Positions 1 to 9,697 of a DNA stretch of 13,453 bases are shown here, in pieces. The stretch lies in the IMG/VR virus record IMGVR_UViG_2651869691_000006, positions 1-13,453 of that record, one strand, 5' to 3'. Numbering within the stretch: position 1 is the stretch's first letter; each line of letters starts with the position of its first letter. This DNA comes from a virus (taxonomy: Duplodnaviria; Heunggongvirae; Uroviricota; Caudoviricetes). Both the position numbers and the translations under genes were made by a program. The notes below the pieces were generated by a model, which saw nothing but the letters and a program-made list of their open reading frames with translations, made no database searches and was not told the origin of the DNA.

Positions 1-650
<650 letters not shown>

Positions 651-651
<1 letters not shown>

Positions 652-1199
652 TGAGGACGATTGAAGCCATGCAGCGACAACTTCTCGGCCTGATTGGGCG
701 GGCAGTGGTGAAAAGCATCAGTGCCGCCACGAAATGTCAGACCGTGGATGTGTCCCTGATTGCCGGTGAACCCAAAGCCGGGGTTGAACATCTTGAACCC
801 TACGGTTTTACCGCAAGGGCAAACAGCGGTGCGGAAGCGGTGGTGTTGTTTCCGGATGGCGACCGTTCTCATGCGGTGGTTGTTACGGTGTCGGACCGGC
901 GCTACCGCCTGAAAGGGCTGCAGACGGGTGAGGTGGCTGTCTATGACGATCAGGGGCAGTCTGTGACGCTGACCCGGGAGGGGATCGTGGTGGACGGTGC
1001 AGGTAAAACGATCACGTTTCGCAATGCGCCCAGAGCACGTTTTGAAATGGACCTGGAAGTGACCGGACAGGTGAAAGACCTGTGCGACTCCGGCGGCACC
1101 ACCATGTCAGCGATGCGGCTTGCCTATAACGGCCATCGTCACAGAGAGAACGGTCAGGGCAGTAACACCGACAAACCGGATAAAGCGATGGAGGCATGA
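651..1199 (+). CDS. Phage baseplate assembly/spike protein V-like (Mu gp45-like)
   Basis: 182-aa ORF; ATG overlaps the upstream stop; motif ...LQTGEVAVYDDQGQSVTLTREGIVVDG... typical of gpV-type baseplate spike proteins; size and position match Mu gp45. Confidence 0.7.
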
Positions 1200-1624
1200 T
1201 GGAACTGTGGCTGACGGTGAACGGTAAACGCACCTGCGCCAGCGCACCGCTGGATCCGCTGACCCGCGCCGTGGTGATTTCCCTGTTCACCTGGCGGCGG
1301 GCGGAGCCTGATGACAATGCCGACGTCCCGATGGGATGGTGGGGGGATACCTGGCCTGCGGTACAGAATGACCGTTACGGCTCCCGGCTGTGGCTGCTTC
1401 AGCGCGGCAAACTGACCAATCAGCTGGTGCAGACGGTAAGGGGGTATATCCGCGAATGCCTGCAATGGATGATTGATGACGGTGTGGTGTCCCGTATTGA
1501 TCTGGATATCCGCCGCACCGGGATTAATGAACTGGGTAACAGTATCACTCTCTGGCGTCGTGACGGACCGGTAATGATTTCTTTTGATGATCTGTGGAGT
1601 GCGATAACGCATGGCGGACAGTGA
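1196..1624 (+). CDS. Phage baseplate protein, Mu gp46-like (GP46/W-like)
   Basis: 142-aa ORF overlapping the upstream stop by 4 nt (ATGA); size and position between V-like and J-like genes match Mu gp46. Confidence 0.65.
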   Translation: MMELWLTVNGKRTCASAPLDPLTRAVVISLFTWRRAEPDDNADVPMGWWGDTWPAVQNDRYGSRLWLLQRGKLTNQLVQTVRGYIRECLQWMIDDGVVSRIDLDIRRTGINELGNSITLWRRDGPVMISFDDLWSAITHGGQ

Positions 1625-2669
1625 ATTTCAGCGCCCGACGCTGGCAGAAAATATCAGTATGCTCCGTAACGATTTATTCGCCAGGCTGGACGTCAGCGAC
1701 ACGCTCCGGCGCATGGATGAAGACGTGCGGGCAAAGGTGTATGCGGCGGCGCTGCATACGGTTTACGGTTACATCGATTATCTGGCAATGAACATGCTGC
1801 CTGACCTGTGCGATGAGTCCTGGCTGGCGCGACATGCTGCGATGAAACGGTGTCCGCGCAAGGGGGCCACGGCTGCCAGCGGGTATATGCGCTGGGAAGG
1901 TGTCAGCGATGGCCTGAAGGTGACCGCCGGGAGTGTTATTCAGCGCGATGACCTGGTTCAGTACACGGCAACTGCCGATGCAACCAGCGCCGGTGGTGTC
2001 CTGCGCGTGCCGATCGCCTGCTCAAGTGCAGGAGCGGTCGGTAACGCTGACGACGGTACGTCATTAATCCTGGTCACGCCGGTGAATGGTCTGCCGTCTT
2101 CCGGCGTGGCAGACACTCTGACAGGTGGATTTGATACTGAAGAGCTGGAAACGTGGCGCGCCCGCGTCATTGAGCGGTATTACTGGACGCCTCAGGGCGG
2201 GGCTGACGGGGACTATGTAGTCTGGGCTAAAGAAGTGCCCGGCATTACCCGTGCATGGACATACCGCCACTGGATGGGAACGGGGACTGTCGGTGTGATG
2301 ATTGCCAGCAGTGACCTGATTAATCCCATTCCGGAAGAATCAACGGAAACGGCGGCAAGACAACACATTGAGCCACTGGCCCCGGTGGCAGGCTCTGATT
2401 TGTATGTATTCAGGCCGGTGGCGCATAAAGTGGATTTTCATATCCGCGTGACGCCGGACACACCGGAAATACGGGCTGCCATCACCGCCGAGTTGCGTTC
2501 GTTCCTGCTGCGTGATGGTTATCCGCAGGGAGAACTGAAGGTGTCGCGTATCAGTGAGGCGATTTCCGGTGCGAACGGGGAATACAGCCATCAGTTGCTT
2601 GCACCGGCGGACAATATCTCCATTGCAAAAAATGAACTGGCGGTACTGGGGACGATTTCATGGACGTGA
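1611..2669 (+). CDS. Baseplate J-like protein (Mu gp47-like; JayE-like)
   Basis: 352-aa ORF overlapping neighbours on both sides; size and order (V-like, gp46-like, J-like, gp48-like, tail fibre) match the Mu/P2 baseplate wedge. Confidence 0.75.
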
Positions 2670-3244
2670 CAAACGATGATTACATCCATCTGTTGTCGGC
2701 ACTGTTGCCCCCCGGTCCGGCGTGGTCAGCCAGCGATCCGGCGATTGCCGGTGCGGCACCGTCATTAACCCGCGTTCATCAGCGTGCGGATGCCCTGATG
2801 CGGGAGCTGGATCCGCGCACCACCACCGAACTGATAAATCGCTGGGAGCGTCTGTGCGGCCTGCCGGATGAATGTATTCCCGCAGGGACACAGACCCTTC
2901 GCCAGCGTCAGCAACGACTGGATGCGAAGGTTAACCTGGCGGGCGGCATCAATGAGGATTTTTACCTTGCACAGCTTGCTGCCCTGGGCAGACCAGACGC
3001 CACCATCACGCGATACGACAAAAGCACGTTCACCTGCTCATCGGCCTGTACTGACGCGGTGAATGCGCCGGAATGGCGGTATTACTGGCAGGTCAACATG
3101 CCAGCCGCCACCAACACCACCTGGATGACATGTGGCGATCCCTGTGATTCCGCACTGCGTATCTGGGGCGACACCGTTGTCGAGTGTGTGCTTAACAAAC
3201 TCTGCCCGTCGCATACCTACGTAATTTTTAAATATCCGGAGTAA
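2660..3244 (+). CDS. ymfQ: Phage tail protein, Mu gp48-like / P2 gpI-like (YmfQ-type, DUF2313)
   Basis: 194-aa ORF ([22 protein letters not shown]...) directly upstream of the tail-fibre gene; same length and position as YmfQ of K-12 e14. Confidence 0.65.
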
Positions 3245-3247
3245 TCC

Positions 3248-3832
3248 ATGCATCGTATAGACACGAAAACCGCGCAGAAGGATAAGTTCGGCGCGGGTAA
3301 GAACGGTTTTACCCGTGGTAACCCCCAGACCGGCACACCTGCCACCGATCTGGATGATGACTACTTTGACATGTTGCAGGAGGAACTTTGCAGTGTTGTG
3401 GAGGCATCCGGTGCCAGCCTGGAGAAGGGGCGGCATGACCAGCTGCTTACAGCGCTTCGTGCGCTGCTGTTAAGCCGCAAGAATCCGTTTGGCGATATCA
3501 AATCGGATGGCACGGTGAAAACGGCTCTCGAAAACCTTGGTTTGGGAGAAGGTGCTAACTGGGTTATGTTACCTGGAGGAATGATAATTCAGCGTGTTTA
3601 TCTTGGATTTCCTATTGGCACTAATGTAAGACATATAACTTTCCCCCGGTCGTTTACAACAACGAACTATTCCATCTCAATTAACTGGAATGATATCGGT
3701 ACTGTAACAACTGAAACACAATCACCAGCAAATGTGGCGGTTGTTCATCAAACAAAATCATTAACAGGGGCCAGCATCTGGCAGGCAGGTCCCGGGGGAT
3801 TTAATGTGGACATTATAGCGGTGGGGTATTGA
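3248..3832 (+). CDS. stfP: Side tail fibre protein (StfP-like): constant N-terminal part fused to the currently resident variable C-terminal part
   Basis: 194-aa ORF with the widespread prophage tail-fibre N-terminus [47 protein letters not shown]...; the invertase crossover site lies inside it at 3525-3550 (codons ...[11 protein letters not shown]...). Confidence 0.8.
3525..3550. repeat. Left crossover site of a Pin/Hin/Gin-family DNA invertase (26-bp imperfect palindrome)
   Basis: CTCTCGAAAACC-TT-GGTTTGGGAGAA; the left half matches the hixL half-site TTCTTGAAAACC at 10/12 positions; the right half is the reverse complement of TTCTCCCAAACC; located at the constant/variable junction of the tail-fibre gene. 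Confidence 0.7.
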
Positions 3833-3833
3833 T

Positions 3834-4262
3834 ATGTACGTATGGAGCGCTAAAGCAAATGGCTTTTTCCCCATATCGGAGAAAGAAAAATTTGAGGCAT
3901 CAGGTCTGTGGCCTGATGATGGTGTAATAGTCAGTGAGGAAGAACATAAAAAGTTATTTATGGATATTCCACCAGGAAAACAGATTGGAACACTGAATGG
4001 AAAACCAGCACTGATAGATATTCCTCAGCCGACCAAAAAGGAATTAATAGCTATTGCTGAAGTTAAAAAATCCCAATTACGGGAAAAGGCTGACAGTGAA
4101 ATATCCTGGCGTCAGGATGCTGTTGATGCTGATATCGCAACTGATGAAGAAGCTACAACTCTCACCCAATGGAAGAAATACCGTGTGCTGCTGATGCGTG
4201 TTGATACGTCAACAGCACCCGATATTGAATGGCCTACGCCTCCGGCAGTTCAGGCCAGATGA
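3834..4262 (+). CDS. tfaP: Tail fibre assembly protein (TfaP-like)
   Basis: 142-aa ORF immediately after the tail-fibre gene; C-terminus ...DTSTAPDIEWPTPP shares the motif found at the C-terminus of the convergent tfaE-like gene. Confidence 0.75.
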   Translation: MYVWSAKANGFFPISEKEKFEASGLWPDDGVIVSEEEHKKLFMDIPPGKQIGTLNGKPALIDIPQPTKKELIAIAEVKKSQLREKADSEISWRQDAVDADIATDEEATTLTQWKKYRVLLMRVDTSTAPDIEWPTPPAVQAR

Positions 4263-4827
4263 CATCCGGCGCGGTGCTGGTATCTGTTGCCGTCACCGCG
4301 TCAATGTAATCCAGCACGGCGTTAAGTCGGGTTGTTTCTGCCTGAGTCAGTTTCCGTCCGGCCTGTAATTTCAGCTGAATCAGACTAATGGAAGCCATTG
4401 CTGCATCAATCAGTGACTGGCGCTGTGCTTCTGCCGCGTCTACTGCGGCACTGTGTTGTGCCTCAGTGTCTGTCACCCATTTCTCACCATCCCATTTATC
4501 GTATGGCGTTAACGGTGAAAGCGTGACATAACCGTCTTTGATGGCACCGATATAATCCACTGTAACAGCTGCACCATTTTCGATTGAGTAAACAGTCTCA
4601 TTGCGATGGTCTTCCTCATGGCTCCATCCCTTACCTGTAAATACCGTCACTCTTCCCGGAATGTTTTCGCCCGGGTCAATACCAGTTGAACAGGCGGGCA
4701 TACTTACGCCAGTATTAATATATTCATCAGACCAGCCCGTATACTCAGATGTTTCAGCATCATAATAAAAACAACGCATATCGCCCGGCACTGTAGCCAG
4801 CCCATTTTCATCAAAAACAGGTTTCAT
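4234..4827 (-). CDS. tfaE: Tail fibre assembly protein (TfaE-like), alternative copy inside the invertible segment
   Basis: 197-aa minus-strand ORF; C-terminus ...DTSTAPDVIWPELPEA; 3' end overlaps tfaP by 29 nt on the opposite strand; start overlaps the stfE stop (TAATG). Confidence 0.75.
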   Translation of the reverse strand: MKPVFDENGLATVPGDMRCFYYDAETSEYTGWSDEYINTGVSMPACSTGIDPGENIPGRVTVFTGKGWSHEEDHRNETVYSIENGAAVTVDYIGAIKDGYVTLSPLTPYDKWDGEKWVTDTEAQHSAAVDAAEAQRQSLIDAAMASISLIQLKLQAGRKLTQAETTRLNAVLDYIDAVTATDTSTAPDVIWPELPEA

Positions 4828-5309
4828 TATTTAGCCCTCACCAGAAAGTTAAATGCAATATTTCGCGGTCTGACAGCAACAAAATTCACACCATCACCCA
4901 CAGAGTTACTGGTGAAATTAAATCGTGAAAATCCTGGCTGATTTCCGGCGATGCCATCATGAAAGTTAATTGCGTGTCCCGCACCTTCGCCTATATTCCC
5001 GGCAAACTGAGAAAAGTTTGTAGCTGCCTGCCAGCTTAATAATTCGCGACCACCATCTGCACCTCGCCCGTCATCCCAGACACGAATGAAATCACCGCGT
5101 GCGTCAGGTAATGCCAACGCCGGAAACACTTTCGCCAGCACAGGGTAATCAGTGGCAGAAAATTTCGCCCCGTTGAACTTCAAAAACACCATACTGGACC
5201 AGCTGTCGATTACAGTATTTGGCATTGCAGCGGACGCCCAGAAGAACGGAACGCCAATAGCTGGAGCACCTTCTCCCAAACTGCGATGGCTCACTGCTGA
5301 TATGTGCAA
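4827..5309 (-). CDS. stfE: Alternative tail-fibre variable C-terminal domain (StfE-like), promoterless; expressible only after inversion fuses it to the stfP constant part
   Basis: Minus-strand frame open from 5321 to the stop at 4827-4829, with no ATG near its 5' end (TTG at 5309); begins ...HISAVSHRSLGEGAPAIG..., sharing the LGEGA junction codons with stfP. Confidence 0.65.
   Translation of the reverse strand: MHISAVSHRSLGEGAPAIGVPFFWASAAMPNTVIDSWSSMVFLKFNGAKFSATDYPVLAKVFPALALPDARGDFIRVWDDGRGADGGRELLSWQAATNFSQFAGNIGEGAGHAINFHDGIAGNQPGFSRFNFTSNSVGDGVNFVAVRPRNIAFNFLVRAK
5265..5293. repeat. Right boundary repeat of the invertible segment: inner half-site only
   Basis: AGCACCTTCTCCCAAAC at 5265-5281 is the exact reverse complement of 3540-3556; beyond it (TGCGATGGCTCA) neither the core dinucleotide nor an outer half-site is recognisable. 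Confidence 0.6.
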
Positions 5310-5503
5310 TCGACGGGGAGTTCAGGATCAAGCGATATCGGACTCATCCTCAACACCACCTGATTAATTTGGAGAGCGGGAGAAGGGAGATGCTACCAGT
5401 AGATGATGACGGTTACGGTTCTGCTCCCGCGATATTCGGGGTGATTACTTACATCATTAATGATGCGAGGAACGCGGAGTTTGATGATTGTCCGGTGATG
5501 TAA

Positions 5504-6172
5504 TCATATTGGCGTTATTAGTTCGGCGCCCTGATTTTTCACATTCCCGACGGCACGCGTTACGGCGTGCCATATAAATTTATCAGCCGGTACAACACCG
5601 TCGGCTGCAATTTCCGCTGCTTCTTTCCCTCCAACATCCTGCCTCATCCATTCACGCGCGGCTTCCGGTAGCAGTACCAGTGGTCGTCTGTCGTGAATAT
5701 CAACCAGTCCTTTGTCAGCTGCAGCTGTAACTATCAGGAAACCTTCTGCTTCATCTCCACGTTCGAATGGTGTGCTGCCGATCGCCGCCATAAAAATCGG
5801 CTGACCGTCTGCCCGGTGAATAAAGTAGGGTTGTTTTTGGTCGCCTTCCTTTTTCCACTCATACCATCCATCAGCAAAGCAAATTGCGCGGCCATGCTGC
5901 CAGAGTGGTTTAAACATTCTGCTGGTGGCAGCAGTTTCAGACCGTGCATTAATGAGCGGCGGTTTATCCCACCAACCGGGGGCGTATCCCCAGATAACTG
6001 GATCAAGATGCAACTGCTCATCACGTTCGCTCAGAAGCAGAACTTTTGTTCCTGGCGCTACGTTGAATCTTCCGATGGGTTCTGGATCGTATGGAATATC
6101 GCGTTCTGATTCATCAGCGAGAAGGGCAAGATAATCTTCACGGGTCATTGACTGTGAAAAGCGTCCACACAT
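5504..6172 (-). CDS. SOS-response-associated peptidase (SRAP, YedK/HMCES family; abasic-site processing protein)
   Basis: 222-aa ORF starting MCGRFSQS (conserved Cys2 nucleophile of the SRAP/DUF159 family); GGAGG Shine-Dalgarno 5 nt upstream of the ATG. Confidence 0.8.
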   Translation of the reverse strand: MCGRFSQSMTREDYLALLADESERDIPYDPEPIGRFNVAPGTKVLLLSERDEQLHLDPVIWGYAPGWWDKPPLINARSETAATSRMFKPLWQHGRAICFADGWYEWKKEGDQKQPYFIHRADGQPIFMAAIGSTPFERGDEAEGFLIVTAAADKGLVDIHDRRPLVLLPEAAREWMRQDVGGKEAAEIAADGVVPADKFIWHAVTRAVGNVKNQGAELITPI

Positions 6173-6406
6173 AGAAACCTCCAGCCGTATGTCAGACTGA
6201 AAGTATAGGGCAGTTAGAAAAAGTGGTGCACACCGTTAAAGATTTAAAAGGAGCATGTAAGGTAAATCGGAATGATGGTTTTGTGAATTGATGAATTCCG
6301 AAAGTGAAAAAGATACTTAATCATTGTGTGCTAGCGATACGGGGGCAACATTTGACGGGGTTTTTCCCCTGTAATTCCCCATTGCTTCCCCGTTCAGAAA
6401 ACAGGC

Positions 6407-6431
6407 AAAAAAACCAGCCGTAACAGGCTGG
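6407..6431 (-). terminator. Rho-independent terminator (minus strand) within repeat copy 1
   Basis: On the minus strand: CCAGCC-tgttac-GGCTGG hairpin followed by TTTTTTT. Confidence 0.7.
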
Positions 6432-6446
6432 TTCTTCGAGGATTTT

Positions 6447-6491
6447 TGGTCGGCACGAGAGGATTTGAACCTCCGCCCCCCGACACCCCAT
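6447..6491 (-). pseudogene. tRNA-Pro 3' fragment (anticodon loop to CCA end), not a complete tRNA
   Basis: Reverse complement reads AUGGGGUGUCGGGGGGCGGAGGUUCAAAUCCUCUCGUGCCGACCA: T-arm GGAGG-UUCAAAU-CCUCU, acceptor 3' strand CGUGCCG, discriminator A, CCA. This matches from memory the 3' half of an E. coli proline tRNA (anticodon loop AUGGGGU). No 5' half is present upstream. Confidence 0.65.
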
Positions 6492-6569
6492 AGTGTCGTG
6501 CTAATATTCTGATGGCCTATATGCGTCTACAGTAAGTTGATAGCATCATTCGTCGGTCGCTTCGTAGTC

Positions 6570-7385
6570 TCACATACGGATAAAATTTTTTCTATTGATT
6601 TTGTCTCTATCAGAGCCATAAATGATGGTTGCAAAAAAACGACCTAATTCAAGATGGTGGAAGTGATTATCTTTTGCTTGAACTGTCATTGAGTCTAATA
6701 TGTTATAGATGCATTCTATGATATGAATAACTAATAAAGTGCGATAACCAGCAAGCATTTCACTTCTTTTAAGTAAATAATTTAAATCCCCTGCAGAGTT
6801 TATATGGTTTCTGTCTTCATCATAATATCCAAGCACATAGCATGGCAGTGTTTCACCATAGCTTCGGTATTGCTCGCATTTTTTATCAATTATATTTTTT
6901 TGTCTTTTTGTTAATATTTTATCGTAAATGCTCTTATCGATTTCATTATACCATTGCTTCATGGGATCATTGTCGTTGTCATTAGTAATGAAATCAATAT
7001 TACTATATCTTGATGAATTTGCAAAATTAGTTAACAACTCCATCACTCTGTAGTGAATTTCATTTAAGCCAGAGGGAGAATCAACTCTCTCAATGACTAG
7101 GTTGAATAACTTGCTTAAGTTATGACCGTAATCTCTTAATTTTTTGCGTGATGTATATTTTCCATTTTTATTATAATCATCAAGCATAAGGCAAAGTTTC
7201 ATAAGCCTTTCTAATCCTAAACTGATGCCGGATAATGCTTGAAAATACAATCCTCTACTTGCAAAATTTGCTTTCCTTAGGGAAGTGAGCCCTATGCCTA
7301 ATAATTGTCTTGAAAAGTCAACCTCATCAACAAATCTTCTGTATTTTTCATCCATAAAAACCTCAGTCAGCCAATTAATATTCAA
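6570..7385 (-). CDS. Hypothetical protein, 271 aa, AT-rich horizontally acquired cargo gene; function unknown (candidate defence/abortive-infection-like)
   Basis: Long minus-strand ORF in a region that appears strongly AT-rich by inspection, in contrast to flanking DNA; Lys/Asn/Ile/Tyr-rich protein; contains KLRDYGHNLSKL (R-x3-H); followed by the terminator in repeat copy 1. Confidence 0.7.
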   Translation of the reverse strand: MNINWLTEVFMDEKYRRFVDEVDFSRQLLGIGLTSLRKANFASRGLYFQALSGISLGLERLMKLCLMLDDYNKNGKYTSRKKLRDYGHNLSKLFNLVIERVDSPSGLNEIHYRVMELLTNFANSSRYSNIDFITNDNDNDPMKQWYNEIDKSIYDKILTKRQKNIIDKKCEQYRSYGETLPCYVLGYYDEDRNHINSAGDLNYLLKRSEMLAGYRTLLVIHIIECIYNILDSMTVQAKDNHFHHLELGRFFATIIYGSDRDKINRKNFIRM

Positions 7386-7577
7386 GAATGATTTCTATAA
7401 AGAACTAATCTAGTTAAATCATCTGATGTAATTAGTATTACAATACCATCAGACGACATTGAAGCAGTATTGTGCCTTATCTACCCTATGTACGTCCATT
7501 GATAAAAATCTGCGCTTTTCGCAGTGGGGTCAATCGTAAGCTAATTTCCCCATTGCTTCCCCGTTCAGAAAACAGGC

Positions 7578-7603
7578 AAAAAAAACCAGCCGTAACAGGC
7601 TGG
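7578..7603 (-). terminator. Rho-independent terminator (minus strand) within repeat copy 2
   Basis: Same CCAGCC/GGCTGG hairpin followed by an 8-T run on the minus strand, positioned downstream of the 322-aa gene. Confidence 0.7.
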
Positions 7604-7618
7604 TTCTTCGAGGATTTT

Positions 7619-7662
7619 TGGTCAGCACGAGAGGATTTGAACCTCCGCCCCCGACACCCCAT
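7619..7662 (-). pseudogene. tRNA-Pro 3' fragment (copy 2), acceptor stem mutated (CGUGCUG)
   Basis: Reverse complement reads AUGGGGUGUCGGGGGCGGAGGUUCAAAUCCUCUCGUGCUGACCA. Confidence 0.6.
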
Positions 7663-7858
7663 AGCGGTGATCTACCTTCTCATCAAGGGTAACCATGTGC
7701 CAGAAGCAGCCCTTGCGCACATTGGATGGGTATCAAATAATGAAGTAGGTCAACTTTATTAAATAAAATTGTGTTGGTTCAGATGATCGAATGGGAATGA
7801 ATAGTTTATTACTTTTGGTGACCGCAAGCGCGATCACCTTCGATTTGGTGGCAATTAC

Positions 7859-8827
7859 CTAGAATGATGCACAATCTTTAAGCTCTTTTTCTAGTTGTTC
7901 AACCAAGTCACAGCATTTTTTGATAACATCTTTAACTGACTCTGAATCTAACTTATGAAAATTACCATTTTTTGTTTTACCTGCTCGATGAACTAAGTCA
8001 TGCCTAATTAACACGCTTTTATAAACTTCTGTGAAAACAGGGAATTTAATACCAAAGGTATCTCGATACATGCCACTTACTTTTGGCAGATTATGATAAA
8101 GAACACTCTTCATAGACTCTATCGCTTGAGACTCTATTTGTTCATGCCTTATAAATAATTCAGAAAGTAAGAATTTTTCTGTATTGTAATCTTTGAAGGT
8201 TTCAACAAAATTTCTCAAATTAGTTTGGCTACCATGAATTAGGGAAATAAATCTGTCACATAAATATGTTTCCAAGGAAGTTATTGTATTGGCATATAGC
8301 ATATACGACATTTGTATTTGTAAAGTGCTATCAATTTTTAACTGAGCATCATTTAGTTTTATGGCGTTCTGCATACTATTTTGGAATGTCATATAGACAT
8401 CTCGTTCAGATAGCGTTCGATCATCAGAGTACTGCATATCAATAACATCTAGAATGCGCTGTTCAATTAATGAAGGTCTATTCAACTGTAATATATCTAT
8501 AGTCGCATGTCCTCGCTCAGTTAAACCTTCTAAATATCCATTTTTATTTTGTTTTATATGTTCTGAAAAACTTTCATTTAAAGGATTTAGAAGTAATGGT
8601 TTGCCATTTTCATCGAGAGGAAACTGATCTTTTTTAATCATGCTACATGCCTTACAAGCGATGAGCAGGTTGTCTGTAGCATCTTGGAAGTCAGTATACT
8701 TTGATTTTGGGAAAAAACGATCAACATCCGCCATCAATGGTTCATAAAGTTTAGTGCCACAGTAAGCACATTGATGCTTAAACTTCTCCCATAGTTCAAG
8801 TTTAAACGTTTTATAATTCTTATTCAT
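7859..8827 (-). CDS. Hypothetical protein, 322 aa, AT-rich cargo gene: N-terminal HNH-like zinc-ribbon domain with non-canonical catalytic positions plus C-terminal domain with an R-x4-H motif (candidate nuclease/defence protein)
   Basis: N-terminus has C20-x2-C23 ... D36-R37-FFPKS ... N53-LLIA-C58-x2-C61, the spacing of an HNH motif but with Arg where the DH histidine normally sits; C-terminus contains IRHDLVHRAG (R275-x4-H280); region appears AT-rich by inspection. Confidence 0.7.
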   Translation of the reverse strand: MNKNYKTFKLELWEKFKHQCAYCGTKLYEPLMADVDRFFPKSKYTDFQDATDNLLIACKACSMIKKDQFPLDENGKPLLLNPLNESFSEHIKQNKNGYLEGLTERGHATIDILQLNRPSLIEQRILDVIDMQYSDDRTLSERDVYMTFQNSMQNAIKLNDAQLKIDSTLQIQMSYMLYANTITSLETYLCDRFISLIHGSQTNLRNFVETFKDYNTEKFLLSELFIRHEQIESQAIESMKSVLYHNLPKVSGMYRDTFGIKFPVFTEVYKSVLIRHDLVHRAGKTKNGNFHKLDSESVKDVIKKCCDLVEQLEKELKDCASF

Positions 8828-9271: not shown

Positions 9272-9436
9272 CTGCTGCGCCATATGGGCTGGACTGAAGC
9301 CGCAGACCTGATTGTTAAAGGTATGGAAGGCGCAATCAACGCCAAGACCGTAACCTATGACTTCGAGCGTCTGATGGAAGGCGCTAATCTGCTGAAATGT
9401 TCAGAGTTTGGTGACGCGATCATCAAGAACATGTAA
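9272..9436 (+). pseudogene. icdC: icd 3'-terminal fragment (icdC): displaced original 3' end of isocitrate dehydrogenase, marking prophage attR
   Basis: Translates in frame to [54 protein letters not shown], the C-terminus of Icd; no upstream icd sequence (in-frame TAA at 9266-9268). Confidence 0.85.
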
Positions 9437-9460
9437 TCTCTACATGTGTTAAATATTGAA

Positions 9461-9488
9461 ACGGGCGTATAACACGCCCGTTGTTTTT
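9461..9488 (+). terminator. Rho-independent terminator of icd
   Basis: ACGGGCGT-ataac-ACGCCCGT hairpin followed by TGTTTTT. Confidence 0.75.
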
Positions 9489-9697
9489 ATAAATATGTTA
9501 ACCGTTATAAAATAACGTATCAAAAGTCAAGTGAACACATTTCAAATATCAATTTGATCGTATTGGTCTGGTGATTATTTATGGGGAGCAATAAAAAGAC
9601 AGTATTAATCATCCATAGGGATGGTCTCTGCACTTTTATTTCCATTATGCTAATGCCTTACTGAATTATGAAGCATTTCTTAAGCTCCCAACTTTAG

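What the first reader, a model, noticed from the sequence alone, without database searches (positions are those of the whole stretch)
6373..7664. Two ~120-bp direct repeats, each a tRNA-Pro 3' fragment plus terminator, bracket the cargo genes
Copies at 6373-6493 and 7542-7664 are near-identical and both on the minus strand. Each contains ~45 nt matching the 3' part of a proline tRNA (anticodon loop to CCA) followed by a hairpin and T-run terminator. In copy 1 the tRNA similarity stops exactly at the anticodon loop, as at integrase att cores; copy 2 continues in degenerate form. There is no intact tRNA or integrase, and the locus is at icd rather than at a tRNA-Pro gene. The units (gene, unique spacer, tRNA-fragment/terminator) therefore look like relics of tandem tRNA-targeting islets relocated here, or like cassette boundaries used for recombinational exchange. 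Each repeat also supplies the terminator for the cargo gene upstream of it.
Basis: partly seen in the sequence, partly recalled or inferred. Interest (0 to 1): 0.65.

Follow-up and report, generated by a model that had tools for sequence, protein, structure and literature searches.

The report
Fossil tRNA-Pro phage attachment sites
The two repeats are leftover attachment sites from an ancestor phage that inserted into the proline tRNA gene proL; the phage now inserts at icd with a different integrase, so they are real and informative scars of module swapping, not a new system.

Summary
There are two co-oriented ~120-bp copies on the minus strand, at 6373-6493 and 7542-7664. They differ by 1 mismatch and 3 single-base indels.

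Each copy has three parts: proL (tRNA-Pro GGG) from anticodon-loop position 32 to CCA, a 12-bp intrinsic terminator, and 2-3 GGGGAA repeats spaced 11 bp apart.

The same unit is the working attP beside the integrase gene in phages Flotzy and Eeyore. It also forms the attL of prophages at yejM-proL in E. coli, Citrobacter, Enterobacter, Serratia and others. E. coli GE3 carries a sibling prophage at proL, with 97-98% identical early genes and the same unit-SRAP-umuD-DinI-pin-tail order. The window's prophage has an unrelated e14-type integrase and sits at icd. The units are therefore relic proL att sites (core plus P' arm) left by an integration-module swap.

The duplication is a one-off, found in 8 of 5,426 E. 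coli genomes. Removing the 1,171-bp hyp261 segment together with one unit copy gives a sequence colinear with the single-unit relic of strain AR_0118.

The cargo gene moves elsewhere without the units, so integron-like cassette boundaries are not supported. I rate this a new member of a known kind, of moderate interest.

The parts
7663..7709 (-). Degenerate 5' half of a phage-borne pseudo-tRNA-Pro, upstream of copy 2
   Evidence: An nhmmer profile built from 9 distinct relic 5' halves hits 7709-7665 at E=4e-4. Identity to family members is 65-72%, against 0-6 of 300 shuffles reaching it. Identity to native proL is no better than chance.
7619..7662 (-). Copy 2: proL 3' part (anticodon loop to CCA), 44 nt, with a variable-loop deletion and an acceptor-stem C>T change
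7578..7609 (-). Copy 2: intrinsic terminator (12-bp stem followed by U8)
   Evidence: -17.5 kcal/mol, z -4.46
7546..7562 (-). Copy 2: two GGGGAA repeats (P'1, P'2). The third is missing, so the repeat ends here.
6570..7432 (-). hyp261 cargo gene (6570-7355) plus about 77 nt of its own upstream region. This is the only part with homology outside this lineage.
   Evidence: 76% nt identity to a K. michiganensis P2-like prophage over window 6581-7432. Protein homologues. No Pfam, PHROG or PADLOC hit.
6447..6491 (-). Copy 1: proL 3' part, 45 nt, with a variable-loop T>G change
6407..6437 (-). Copy 1: intrinsic terminator (12-bp stem followed by U7)
6364..6391 (-). Copy 1: three GGGGAA repeats at 11-bp spacing (P'1-P'3), inferred to be integrase arm-type sites. 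The sequence continues into the SRAP upstream region as in real proL lysogens.
5504..6172 (-). SRAP (SOS-response-associated peptidase) gene, the first backbone gene after the unit in proL lysogens
   Evidence: Pfam PF02586, E=6.8e-51. The same unit-SRAP order occurs at proL in LP50-1, 100181 and GE3.
5273..5500 (+). C-terminal remnant of the S24/UmuD-like gene. The deletion junction at 5281 removed pin, DinI and the gene's 5' part.
   Evidence: tblastn and blastn against fEC.1
7859..8827 (-). HNH endonuclease cargo gene (PtuB-like / type IV restriction-like), between copy 2 and the current att site
   Evidence: PADLOC PtuB E=1.1e-23 and mREase_IV E=2.3e-11; PHROG HNH families
9278..9487 (+). 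icd' : the displaced 3' end of icd, which is the attR of the present prophage
   Evidence: 94% identity to the icd 3' end; annotation of relatives

Best explanation
**What the unit is.** Each unit is a vestigial attachment site of a proL-integrating temperate phage. It holds the att core (the tRNA-Pro 3' part that a phage carries to rebuild proL after insertion), the phage's replacement proL terminator, and the P' arm. The P' arm consists of tandem GGGGAA sites that I infer bind the integrase.

**How it came to be here.** The window's prophage belongs to a lineage with a Mu-like tail and the order tail fibre, pin, DinI, umuD, SRAP. Sibling phages still integrate at proL. In this branch the proL-type integrase and P arm were replaced by an e14-type int/xis/attP(icd) module. 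The old core and P' arm were left stranded inside the prophage, next to the cargo zone.

**How the second copy arose.** A ~1.05-kb segment carrying the moron gene hyp261 and its own att-type junction inserted, Campbell-fashion, into a single pseudo-tRNA relic. This duplicated the 120-bp core-terminator-P'1-2 stretch. Whether a proL-type integrase or homologous recombination did this is unresolved.

**What they do today.** The units have no recombinase partner in the prophage. They most likely act only as strong minus-strand terminators downstream of HNH and hyp261, and as 120-bp homology patches that could loop out hyp261.

**Shown versus inferred.** Shown: the identity with functional attP and attL, the sibling phage, the different integrase, and colinearity after a virtual deletion. 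Inferred: arm-site function, the insertion mechanism, and terminator use.
For: 1. **Match to proL.** The unit matches proL and its downstream terminator in all 5,426 E. coli genomes (88% over tRNA plus hairpin).
2. **Working attP in free phages.** Flotzy and Eeyore have the unit directly after their integrase gene. Identity with proL starts at CATGGGG in the anticodon loop.
3. **Working attL in lysogens.** 11 of 15 genome-contig loci have yejM, an intact tRNA-Pro(GGG), and a phage-type unit followed by DinI, UmuD, SRAP or pin. The same is seen in E. coli Ec1115, LP50-1, 100181 and GE3.
4. **GE3 far end.** It has an Int 76% identical to Flotzy Int, then the displaced proL 3' fragment with the native terminator and yejO.
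5. **Sibling backbones.** The GE3 (proL) and fEC.1 (icd; 99.7% identical to the window where they align) prophages share 97-98% nt identity over more than 6 kb of early genes, and 94% over unit plus SRAP. Their integrases are only about 26-27% identical.
6. **Arm-site pattern.** GGGGAA occurs at +86, +97 and +108 from the T arm, and once at -148 just after the int stop, in Flotzy and Eeyore. Copy 1 has three of these, copy 2 has two, and neither has the P-arm site. Across 35 distinct units these motifs are conserved while the spacers vary.
7. **Colinearity after virtual deletion.** Joining the copy 2 5' flank to copy 1 and SRAP gives one 1,024-nt alignment at 92% to AR_0118, running straight across the junction.
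8. **Recurring layout.** The order current att, cargo, relic unit, backbone recurs at ssrA (CFT073, 18KM2445), prfC (CREC-591), serU (C. braakii), a tonB-adjacent site (C. murliniae) and in 12 IMG/VR contigs.
Against: - No experiment shows that Int binds GGGGAA or that termination occurs here.
- No intermediate was found at icd (HNH-unit-SRAP without hyp261) in 5,426 genomes.
- The donor flanks 7433-7541 and 6494-6580 have no match elsewhere. The hyp261 insertion mechanism is therefore inferred from structure only.
- The origin of the non-native 5' pseudo-half is unexplained. No free phage was found with that half next to its integrase.
- In relics the 3' tRNA part is far better preserved than the 5' half. 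This could reflect continuing homogenisation or selection rather than simple inertia.
Confidence: 0.8

Rival explanations
1. One reading: two or more small islets integrated in tandem at a chromosomal tRNA-Pro gene, and the array (gene, spacer, tRNA fragment/terminator units) was later moved as a block to the icd locus.
For: - The left edge of the duplication coincides with the att core boundary. This is ATGGGG in relatives L001, L009 and L010.
- Copy 2 has a full-length degenerate tRNA, like an attL.
- Tandem arrays at tDNAs are a known phenomenon (PMC4383910).
Against: - The 5' half beside copy 2 is not the native proL 5' half or its upstream flank. It belongs to a phage-borne family found inside prophages at many sites.
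- Copy 1 plus SRAP is ordinary phage backbone in proL lysogens.
- The units sit inside an intact-looking prophage bounded by icd and icd'.
- No yejM or yejO flank came along.
Confidence: 0.1
2. The units are active cassette boundaries. They would be recombination sites of an integron-like or shufflon-like exchange system that swaps defence or cargo genes in this prophage slot.
For: - Variable cargo lies next to the unit in many prophages: HNH, HEPN, AAA ATPase, SMODS/SLATT, NUDIX and hypothetical proteins.
- A 44-nt stretch at >=95% column conservation could serve as a recombination anchor.
Against: - There is no cognate integrase in the window or the prophage. The prophage Int is e14-type, 26% identical to Flotzy Int.
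- The P arm is absent, copy 2 lacks P'3, and both cores are mutated.
- Two-unit arrays occur in only one lineage, 8 of 5,426 genomes.
- hyp261 travels without units.
- A sibling e14-like prophage at the same slot (20KM0223N, DUF262 cargo) has no unit at all.
Confidence: 0.05
3. The two copies are independent relics of two different past integration modules. Their 120-bp near-identity would come from later gene conversion, not from an insertion-duplication.
For: - The 5' flanks of the two copies are unrelated.
- The tRNA core is almost invariant among all units, so conversion tracts would naturally end at the anticodon loop.
- In this window a C>T change in copy 2 extends the identity by 2 nt compared with relatives.
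Against: - The virtual deletion product is colinear with AR_0118 across the junction (one HSP, 92%). This is expected for an insertion into one relic and not for two separate relics.
- Both copies share lineage-specific spacer bases (CCTCGAAG), seen otherwise only in the closest Citrobacter relic.
Confidence: 0.12
4. The unit is kept by selection as a functional module. It could be a strong terminator or insulator shielding the SOS-regulated umuD-DinI-tail end from read-through, or a tRNA-like 3' structure that stabilises or processes cargo transcripts. On this reading it is not an inert fossil.
For: - The terminator stem and the tRNA 3' part are at least 80-95% conserved in relics that can no longer be used for integration.
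- The hairpin is strong in both copies.
- HNH and hyp261 are co-oriented with a unit and lie just upstream of one.
Against: - The P' GGGGAA sites are conserved in relics too. A terminator role does not explain that.
- In AR_0118 the cargo genes face away from the unit.
- Many sibling prophages lack the unit: the K-12-type genome has only proL, and 20KM0223N has none.
- Rfam finds no RNA family here.
Confidence: 0.12

Closest known systems
attP/attL of tyrosine-integrase phages and islands that target tRNA genes at the anticodon loop (class A sites; Islander principle, PMC4383910)
   Same: The element carries the 3' part of the target tRNA from the anticodon loop to CCA, so that integration rebuilds the gene. 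Arm-type direct repeats flank the core. The same sequence is seen as attP beside int in free phages and as attL at proL in lysogens.
   Different: In this window the site is orphaned. The P arm and the cognate integrase are gone, the core carries mutations, and the prophage uses icd. One copy also carries a degenerate full-length 5' half, which an ordinary attP does not need.
e14 prophage of E. coli K-12 (icd-integrating, pin invertase, mcrA next to attR)
   Same: It has the same integration site (icd / icd'), the same e14-type int-xisE and ymf regulatory genes in relatives, and the same cargo slot between the tail-fibre/pin region and attR. That slot holds a restriction-type gene: mcrA in K-12 (from my own knowledge) and HNH here.
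   Different: K-12-type genomes show only the proL match and no relic unit. This lineage carries the SRAP-umuD-DinI module and one or two proL relics inherited from proL-integrating siblings.
Tandem island arrays at tDNAs (each member with its own tDNA fragment)
   Same: There are direct repeats of a tRNA 3' fragment in the same orientation, separating blocks of foreign genes. The duplication boundary lies at the att core.
   Different: There is no intact tRNA at the head of the array. The blocks have no integrase, the array lies inside a prophage at a protein-coding att site, and the inserted block is a single 0.85-kb moron.
Prophage defence/moron hotspots (P2/P4 hotspots of antiviral systems, Rousset et al. 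2022, cited from memory)
   Same: A fixed position in a conserved phage backbone holds highly variable, AT-rich, often defence-related genes. hyp261 homologues sit in the classical P2 hotspots.
   Different: Here the inner edge of the hotspot is marked by a fossil att site. Nothing like this has been described for the P2 hotspots, as far as I could find.

Membership tests
Functional tRNA-targeting attP (tyrosine integrase, anticodon-loop class) | Identity to the 3' part of the target tRNA gene, starting in the anticodon loop and running to the 3' end | tested here: met
   44/45 nt (copy 1) and 43/45 positions (copy 2) identical to proL positions 32-76
Functional tRNA-targeting attP (tyrosine integrase, anticodon-loop class) | Cognate tyrosine integrase gene adjacent or in the same element | tested here: not met
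   tblastn finds no Flotzy-type or e14-type Int in the window. The prophage's Int in relatives is e14-type, 26% identical to Flotzy Int. The feature is met in Flotzy, Eeyore and GE3.
Functional tRNA-targeting attP (tyrosine integrase, anticodon-loop class) | Arm-type repeats on both sides of the core (P and P' arms) | tested here: not met
   P' GGGGAA repeats are present (3 in copy 1, 2 in copy 2). There is no P-arm site within 400 nt upstream of either copy, whereas Flotzy and Eeyore have one at -148. Binding itself cannot be tested here.
Functional tRNA-targeting attP (tyrosine integrase, anticodon-loop class) | The same sequence found as attL fused to the intact tRNA in lysogens | tested here: met
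   11 genome-contig loci plus E. coli Ec1115, LP50-1, 100181 and GE3. This holds for relatives, not for the window copies themselves.
tRNA gene | Complete cloverleaf recognised by tRNA finders | tested here: not met
   ARAGORN finds 0 genes in the window. The Rfam tRNA model gives no hit at E<=1 in the window, 54.9 bits for K-12 proL, and 25.3 bits (below the 29-bit threshold) for the best Citrobacter relics.
Intrinsic (Rho-independent) terminator | G+C-rich hairpin immediately followed by a U-run on the transcribed strand | tested here: met
   12-bp stem, -17.5 kcal/mol, 0 of 200 shuffles as stable, followed by U7/U8, on the minus strand in both copies. Actual termination was not tested.
Integron-type cassette array | Adjacent IntI-type integrase, attC-type imperfect palindromes at cassette ends, and promoterless cassettes | tested here: not met
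   There is no integrase in the window. The units are tRNA-derived direct repeats, not attC palindromes. hyp261 carries its own conserved upstream region in unrelated contexts.
Tandem island array at a tDNA | Intact tDNA at one end, and one tDNA fragment plus one integrase per member | tested here: not met
   No intact tRNA and no integrase between or beside the copies.
Prophage cargo/defence hotspot | Variable gene content at a fixed position between conserved phage genes and the prophage end, including defence-type genes | tested here: met
   At the same slot: HNH/PtuB-like and DUF262. At equivalent slots next to the relic in other prophages: HEPN, AAA ATPase and SMODS/SLATT. These rest on annotation or HMM hits only.

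The most novel reading that the evidence does not exclude
The orphan proL att unit may not be inert. On this reading it persists as a portable docking and recombination landmark at the tail-fibre end of SfV/e14-like (and even Gifsy-2-type) prophages, whatever att site they now use. Co-resident proL-type integrases, or homologous recombination on the invariant 45-nt tRNA core, would capture att-bearing DNA circles there. Defence and moron cargo would then build up layer by layer between the relic and the current att site. The hyp261 insertion would be a caught-in-the-act example.
Probability: 0.15. Interest if true: 0.6.

Novelty: new member of a known kind. Interest (0 to 1): 0.35.

Why it matters
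This is a clean, datable example of how temperate phages change their integration site. Two nearly identical backbones sit at proL and at icd, and the old attP survives in the icd branch.

The relic is a sequence landmark found across Enterobacterales prophages at icd, ssrA, prfC, serU and other sites. It marks the inner edge of the variable cargo and defence zone. That helps with delimiting prophage cargo, with avoiding false tRNA-Pro or island calls, and with reconstructing phage mosaic history. PGAP already annotates one such relic as a tRNA.

It does not reveal a new mechanism.

Tried and rejected
- **Real or cryptic tRNA gene: rejected.** ARAGORN and Rfam find nothing.
- **5' pseudo-half upstream of copy 1: rejected.** It looked plausible by eye. 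nhmmer finds no hit and identity is no better than shuffles.
- **Bacterial attL captured from E. coli proL: rejected.** The 5' half and upstream flank of copy 2 match phage-borne relics, not native proL.
- **Gene plus unit as one mobile cassette: rejected.** hyp261 homologues in Klebsiella and Proteus P2-like prophages share only the gene and 77 nt upstream.
- **Search for intermediates at icd.** I looked for single-unit forms with HNH, and for hyp261 elsewhere. None exists in 5,426 complete E. coli genomes.
- **Function of hyp261.** Pfam, PADLOC and PHROGs give no hit. One homologue cluster carries a precomputed PF05168 hit, which I did not pursue.
- **Literature.** Searches on proL integration, e14/icd, Gifsy-2/sseI plus tRNA-Pro, att remnants and Flotzy/Eeyore found no prior description of this relic. 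One search failed on syntax.
- **Failed look-up.** P0005 was not on record.
- **Weak Rfam hits.** IS009 at 4030-4213 and STnc150 at 9450-9598 are far below their thresholds, and I ignored them.
Full report
**1.

The repeat finder reports two in-register blocks, 6407-6480 / 7579-7652 (74 nt, 99%) and 6375-6413 / 7546-7584 (39 nt, 100%). Nothing else in the window comes close. A global alignment shows identity from CTATGGGG to GGGGAATTA, with one mismatch and three single-base indels.

Read on the minus strand, each copy has three parts:
- **tRNA part.** Copy 1 spans 6491->6447 and copy 2 spans 7662->7619. This is proL tRNA-Pro(GGG) from anticodon-loop position 32 to CCA. Copy 1 has a T>G change in the variable loop. 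Copy 2 has a deletion there and a C>T change in the acceptor stem.
- **Terminator.** After a 9-nt spacer comes a 12-bp hairpin with U7-U8, at 6437->6407 and 7609->7578. It folds at -17.5 kcal/mol, and none of 200 shuffles is as stable.
- **GGGGAA repeats.** These are spaced 11 bp apart. Copy 1 has three (6391->6364) and copy 2 has two (7562->7546).

ARAGORN finds no tRNA in the window. The Rfam tRNA model finds nothing there at E<=1, while K-12 proL scores 54.9 bits.

**2. Where the window comes from**

The window is the right end of an e14-like prophage inserted in icd of E. coli. Its layout is:
- Mu-like baseplate and tail-fibre genes, 1-5309
- a remnant of an S24/UmuD-like gene, 5273-5500
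- SRAP, 5504-6172 (Pfam E=6.8e-51)
- copy 1
- a 261-aa hypothetical gene, hyp261
- copy 2
- a 322-aa HNH protein resembling PtuB and type IV restriction enzymes
- the displaced icd 3' end, 9278-9487
- ycgX, bluR, bluF, ycgZ and ymgA

In the closest relative, fEC.1, the left prophage end has icd followed by an e14-type integrase and xisE.

**3. What the unit is**

*Match to proL.* The unit matches proL and its downstream terminator in every E. coli genome, at about 88% over tRNA plus hairpin. The phage version also has the GGGGAA region, which the native locus lacks.

*Working attP.* In the free phages Flotzy and Eeyore the same unit lies immediately after the integrase gene. Their identity with proL begins at CATGGGG in the anticodon loop.

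*Working attL.* A pattern scan of one genome per species returned 15 loci. Eleven are yejM, an intact tRNA-Pro(GGG), and a phage-type unit followed by DinI, UmuD, SRAP or pin. They come from Citrobacter, Enterobacter, Pseudocitrobacter, Serratia and Symbiopectobacterium. E. coli Ec1115, LP50-1, 100181 and GE3 show the same. Upstream of the anticodon loop these lysogens have the native tRNA 5' half, where Flotzy has phage sequence. Downstream they are alike. This is the classical BOP' versus POP' relation.

*Arm sites (inferred).* Flotzy and Eeyore have GGGGAA at +86, +97 and +108 from the T arm, and one more at -148 just after the int stop. Across 35 distinct units these motifs are conserved while the spacers between them vary. 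That layout is the one expected for arm-type integrase sites. This is an inference, since binding was not tested.

**4. Why the unit is at icd**

E. coli GE3 and 100181 carry a prophage at the real proL with the order unit, SRAP, umuC, umuD, DinI, (cargo), pinE, tail fibre. This is the same order as in the window's lineage: unit 1, SRAP, S24 remnant, DinI, pin, tail fibres in fEC.1, CDF6 and Ecol_545.

At the far end of the GE3 prophage are an Int 76% identical to Flotzy Int, the displaced proL 3' fragment with the native terminator, and yejO.

The GE3 (proL) and fEC.1 (icd) prophages share 97-98% nucleotide identity over more than 6 kb of early and regulatory genes, and 94% over unit plus SRAP. 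Their integrases are only about 26-27% identical.

So one phage lineage exists in two forms that differ mainly in the integration module. The icd form has kept the core and P' arm of the old proL attP and has lost the P arm and the proL-type Int. The units are therefore relics.

**5. The relic is widespread and marks the cargo zone**

The order current att, cargo, relic unit, backbone recurs in many places:

| Current att site | Strain or locus | Cargo beside the relic |
|---|---|---|
| ssrA | CFT073, 18KM2445 | hypothetical genes |
| prfC | CREC-591 | AAA ATPase |
| serU | C. braakii | SRAP, 274-aa ORF |
| next to tonB | C. murliniae | SRAP, NUDIX |
| yag region | AR_0118 | HEPN, hypothetical |

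Other occurrences:
- 12 IMG/VR contigs
- a position beside SMODS/SLATT genes in strain 2013C-4991
- Gifsy-2, upstream of sseI

Phage-type units occur in 269 of 5,426 complete E. coli genomes. None of the relics examined has a cognate integrase beside it.

**6. Copy 2 carries a pseudo 5' half and copy 1 does not**

A family of relics shares a degenerate, non-native 5' tRNA half, CTTCTGGCACATAGCWGCC... with a 5-6 nt D-loop insertion. Its members are AR_0118, three Citrobacter loci and the IMG/VR contigs.

A profile built from these 5' halves hits the region upstream of copy 2 (7709-7665, E=4e-4). It finds nothing upstream of copy 1. Shuffle tests agree. The origin of this half is unresolved: it could be a captured attL, or an attP lineage that carries a whole tRNA copy.

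**7. How the second copy arose**

*A one-off event.* The hyp261 segment and the HNH segment each occur in only the same 8 of 5,426 genomes, always in this arrangement. The 281 phage-type units sit in 269 genomes. The tandem structure is therefore a single event, not a recurrent array.

*Colinearity test.* Joining the copy 2 5' flank directly to copy 1 and SRAP gives one continuous 1,024-nt alignment (92%) with AR_0118, running across the junction. The window therefore equals an AR_0118-like single relic plus a 1,171-bp insertion that duplicated the 120-bp core-terminator-P'1-2 stretch.

*Boundary.* In relatives L001, L009 and L010 the duplication starts exactly at ATGGGG, the att core boundary. 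The donor must therefore have carried a proL-type att junction.

*Mechanism.* A Campbell-type insertion fits, either integrase-mediated or homologous. The data cannot tell which. The alternative of two independent relics homogenised by gene conversion is less consistent with the colinearity.

**8. The cargo gene is not tied to the units**

hyp261 homologues (58-81% identical for most full-length hits, down to about 40% for the most distant) occur in Klebsiella, Pectobacterium, Xenorhabdus, Proteus, Aeromonas and others. In K. michiganensis and Proteus they sit in P2-like prophage hotspots, between gpS and gpV or after ogr.

Nucleotide homology to the window covers only 6581-7432, which is the gene plus 77 nt upstream. 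It includes no unit.

A sibling e14-like prophage with a DUF262 gene in the same slot has no unit. K-12-type genomes have only proL. This argues against the units being cassette boundaries of an exchange system.

**9. Present function**

With no P arm, mutated cores and no cognate Int, the units are unlikely to be active att sites. Both are strong minus-strand terminators lying 79 nt (hyp261) and 197 nt (HNH) downstream of co-oriented cargo genes. Termination of those transcripts is plausible but untested. It is also not general, since in AR_0118 the cargo faces the other way. The 120-bp direct repeats could mediate loss of hyp261 by homologous recombination.

**10. Comparison with known systems and novelty**

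The anatomy is that of anticodon-loop-class tRNA att sites, as formalised for Islander (PMC4383910). It also fits modular exchange of integration modules among temperate phages. Five literature searches found no description of this particular proL relic in e14/SfV-like prophages or Gifsy-2.

I class it as a new member of a known kind. It is useful as a landmark and as a clear case of att-site switching, but it is not mechanistically new. The most novel reading not excluded is that the relic acts as a docking or recombination landmark that nucleates cargo accretion. I give that about 15%.

Noticed in passing
window 5273-5500 (junction at 5281): Relative to fEC.1 (L001 8204|9707), about 1.5 kb is deleted. 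The deletion removed the pin invertase, DinI and the 5' part of the S24/UmuD-like gene. The invertible tail-fibre segment (4234-5309, minus-strand tfa and fibre C-terminus) therefore has no invertase in this window.
   Followed up: partly
window 9488-9697: The iraM-ymgK segment (~0.9 kb) lies between icd' and ycgX in fEC.1, CDF6 and 20KM0223N but is absent here. fEC.1 has a 48-nt second copy of the icd downstream sequence just before ycgX (L001 14726-14773) that could have mediated the loss.
   Followed up: partly
L029 7037-10977 (fEC.1, left prophage end): Relics are layered on the icd side too. The order is icd, hypothetical gene, integrase fragment, a second diverged icd 3' fragment (82% identity, 7951-8092), two hypothetical genes, the intact e14-type int, then xisE.
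   Followed up: partly
L012 4909-4990 (E. coli AR_0118): PGAP annotates the phage-borne pseudo-tRNA (82 nt, enlarged D-loop) as tRNA-Pro. ARAGORN and the Rfam tRNA model do not accept it. This is a likely recurring annotation artefact for this relic family.
   Followed up: yes
L023 2044-2095 (C. braakii): A 3' fragment of tRNA-Ser (serU) lies between a porin gene and SRAP. It was identified from partial Rfam hits and from my memory of the serU sequence. It is probably the current att site of that prophage, which also carries the proL relic further in.
   Followed up: partly
L030/L031 6001-6786; L032/L033 6001-6789: hyp261 homologues occupy the classical variable slots of P2-like prophages in Klebsiella michiganensis (between gpS and gpV, next to a divergent 286-aa gene) and Proteus mirabilis (after ogr). 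This suggests an uncharacterised defence or moron gene. One homologue cluster carries a precomputed PF05168 hit.
   Followed up: partly
L007 1507-1614 (Gifsy-2, record 44227-44334): The lambdoid Salmonella prophage Gifsy-2 carries a diverged copy of the same proL unit about 1.5 kb from its right end, on the far side of the effector gene sseI from the tail-fibre genes. The record has no annotation there.
   Followed up: no
L050 14240-16620 (E. coli GE3): In the proL-integrated sibling prophage the integrase is a pseudogene (internal stop). A 240-aa hypothetical gene sits between int and the attR core, so cargo also accumulates on the int side of the att site.
   Followed up: no
window 7510-7524 and 7395-7460 (minus strand): Between copy 2 and hyp261 there is a second small terminator-like hairpin (CTGCGAAAAGCGCAG followed by T-rich sequence). 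There is also an imperfect ~35-nt palindrome (CATCTGATG...CATCAGACG) upstream of the hyp261 promoter region. Neither matches anything outside the 8 related genomes.
   Followed up: no
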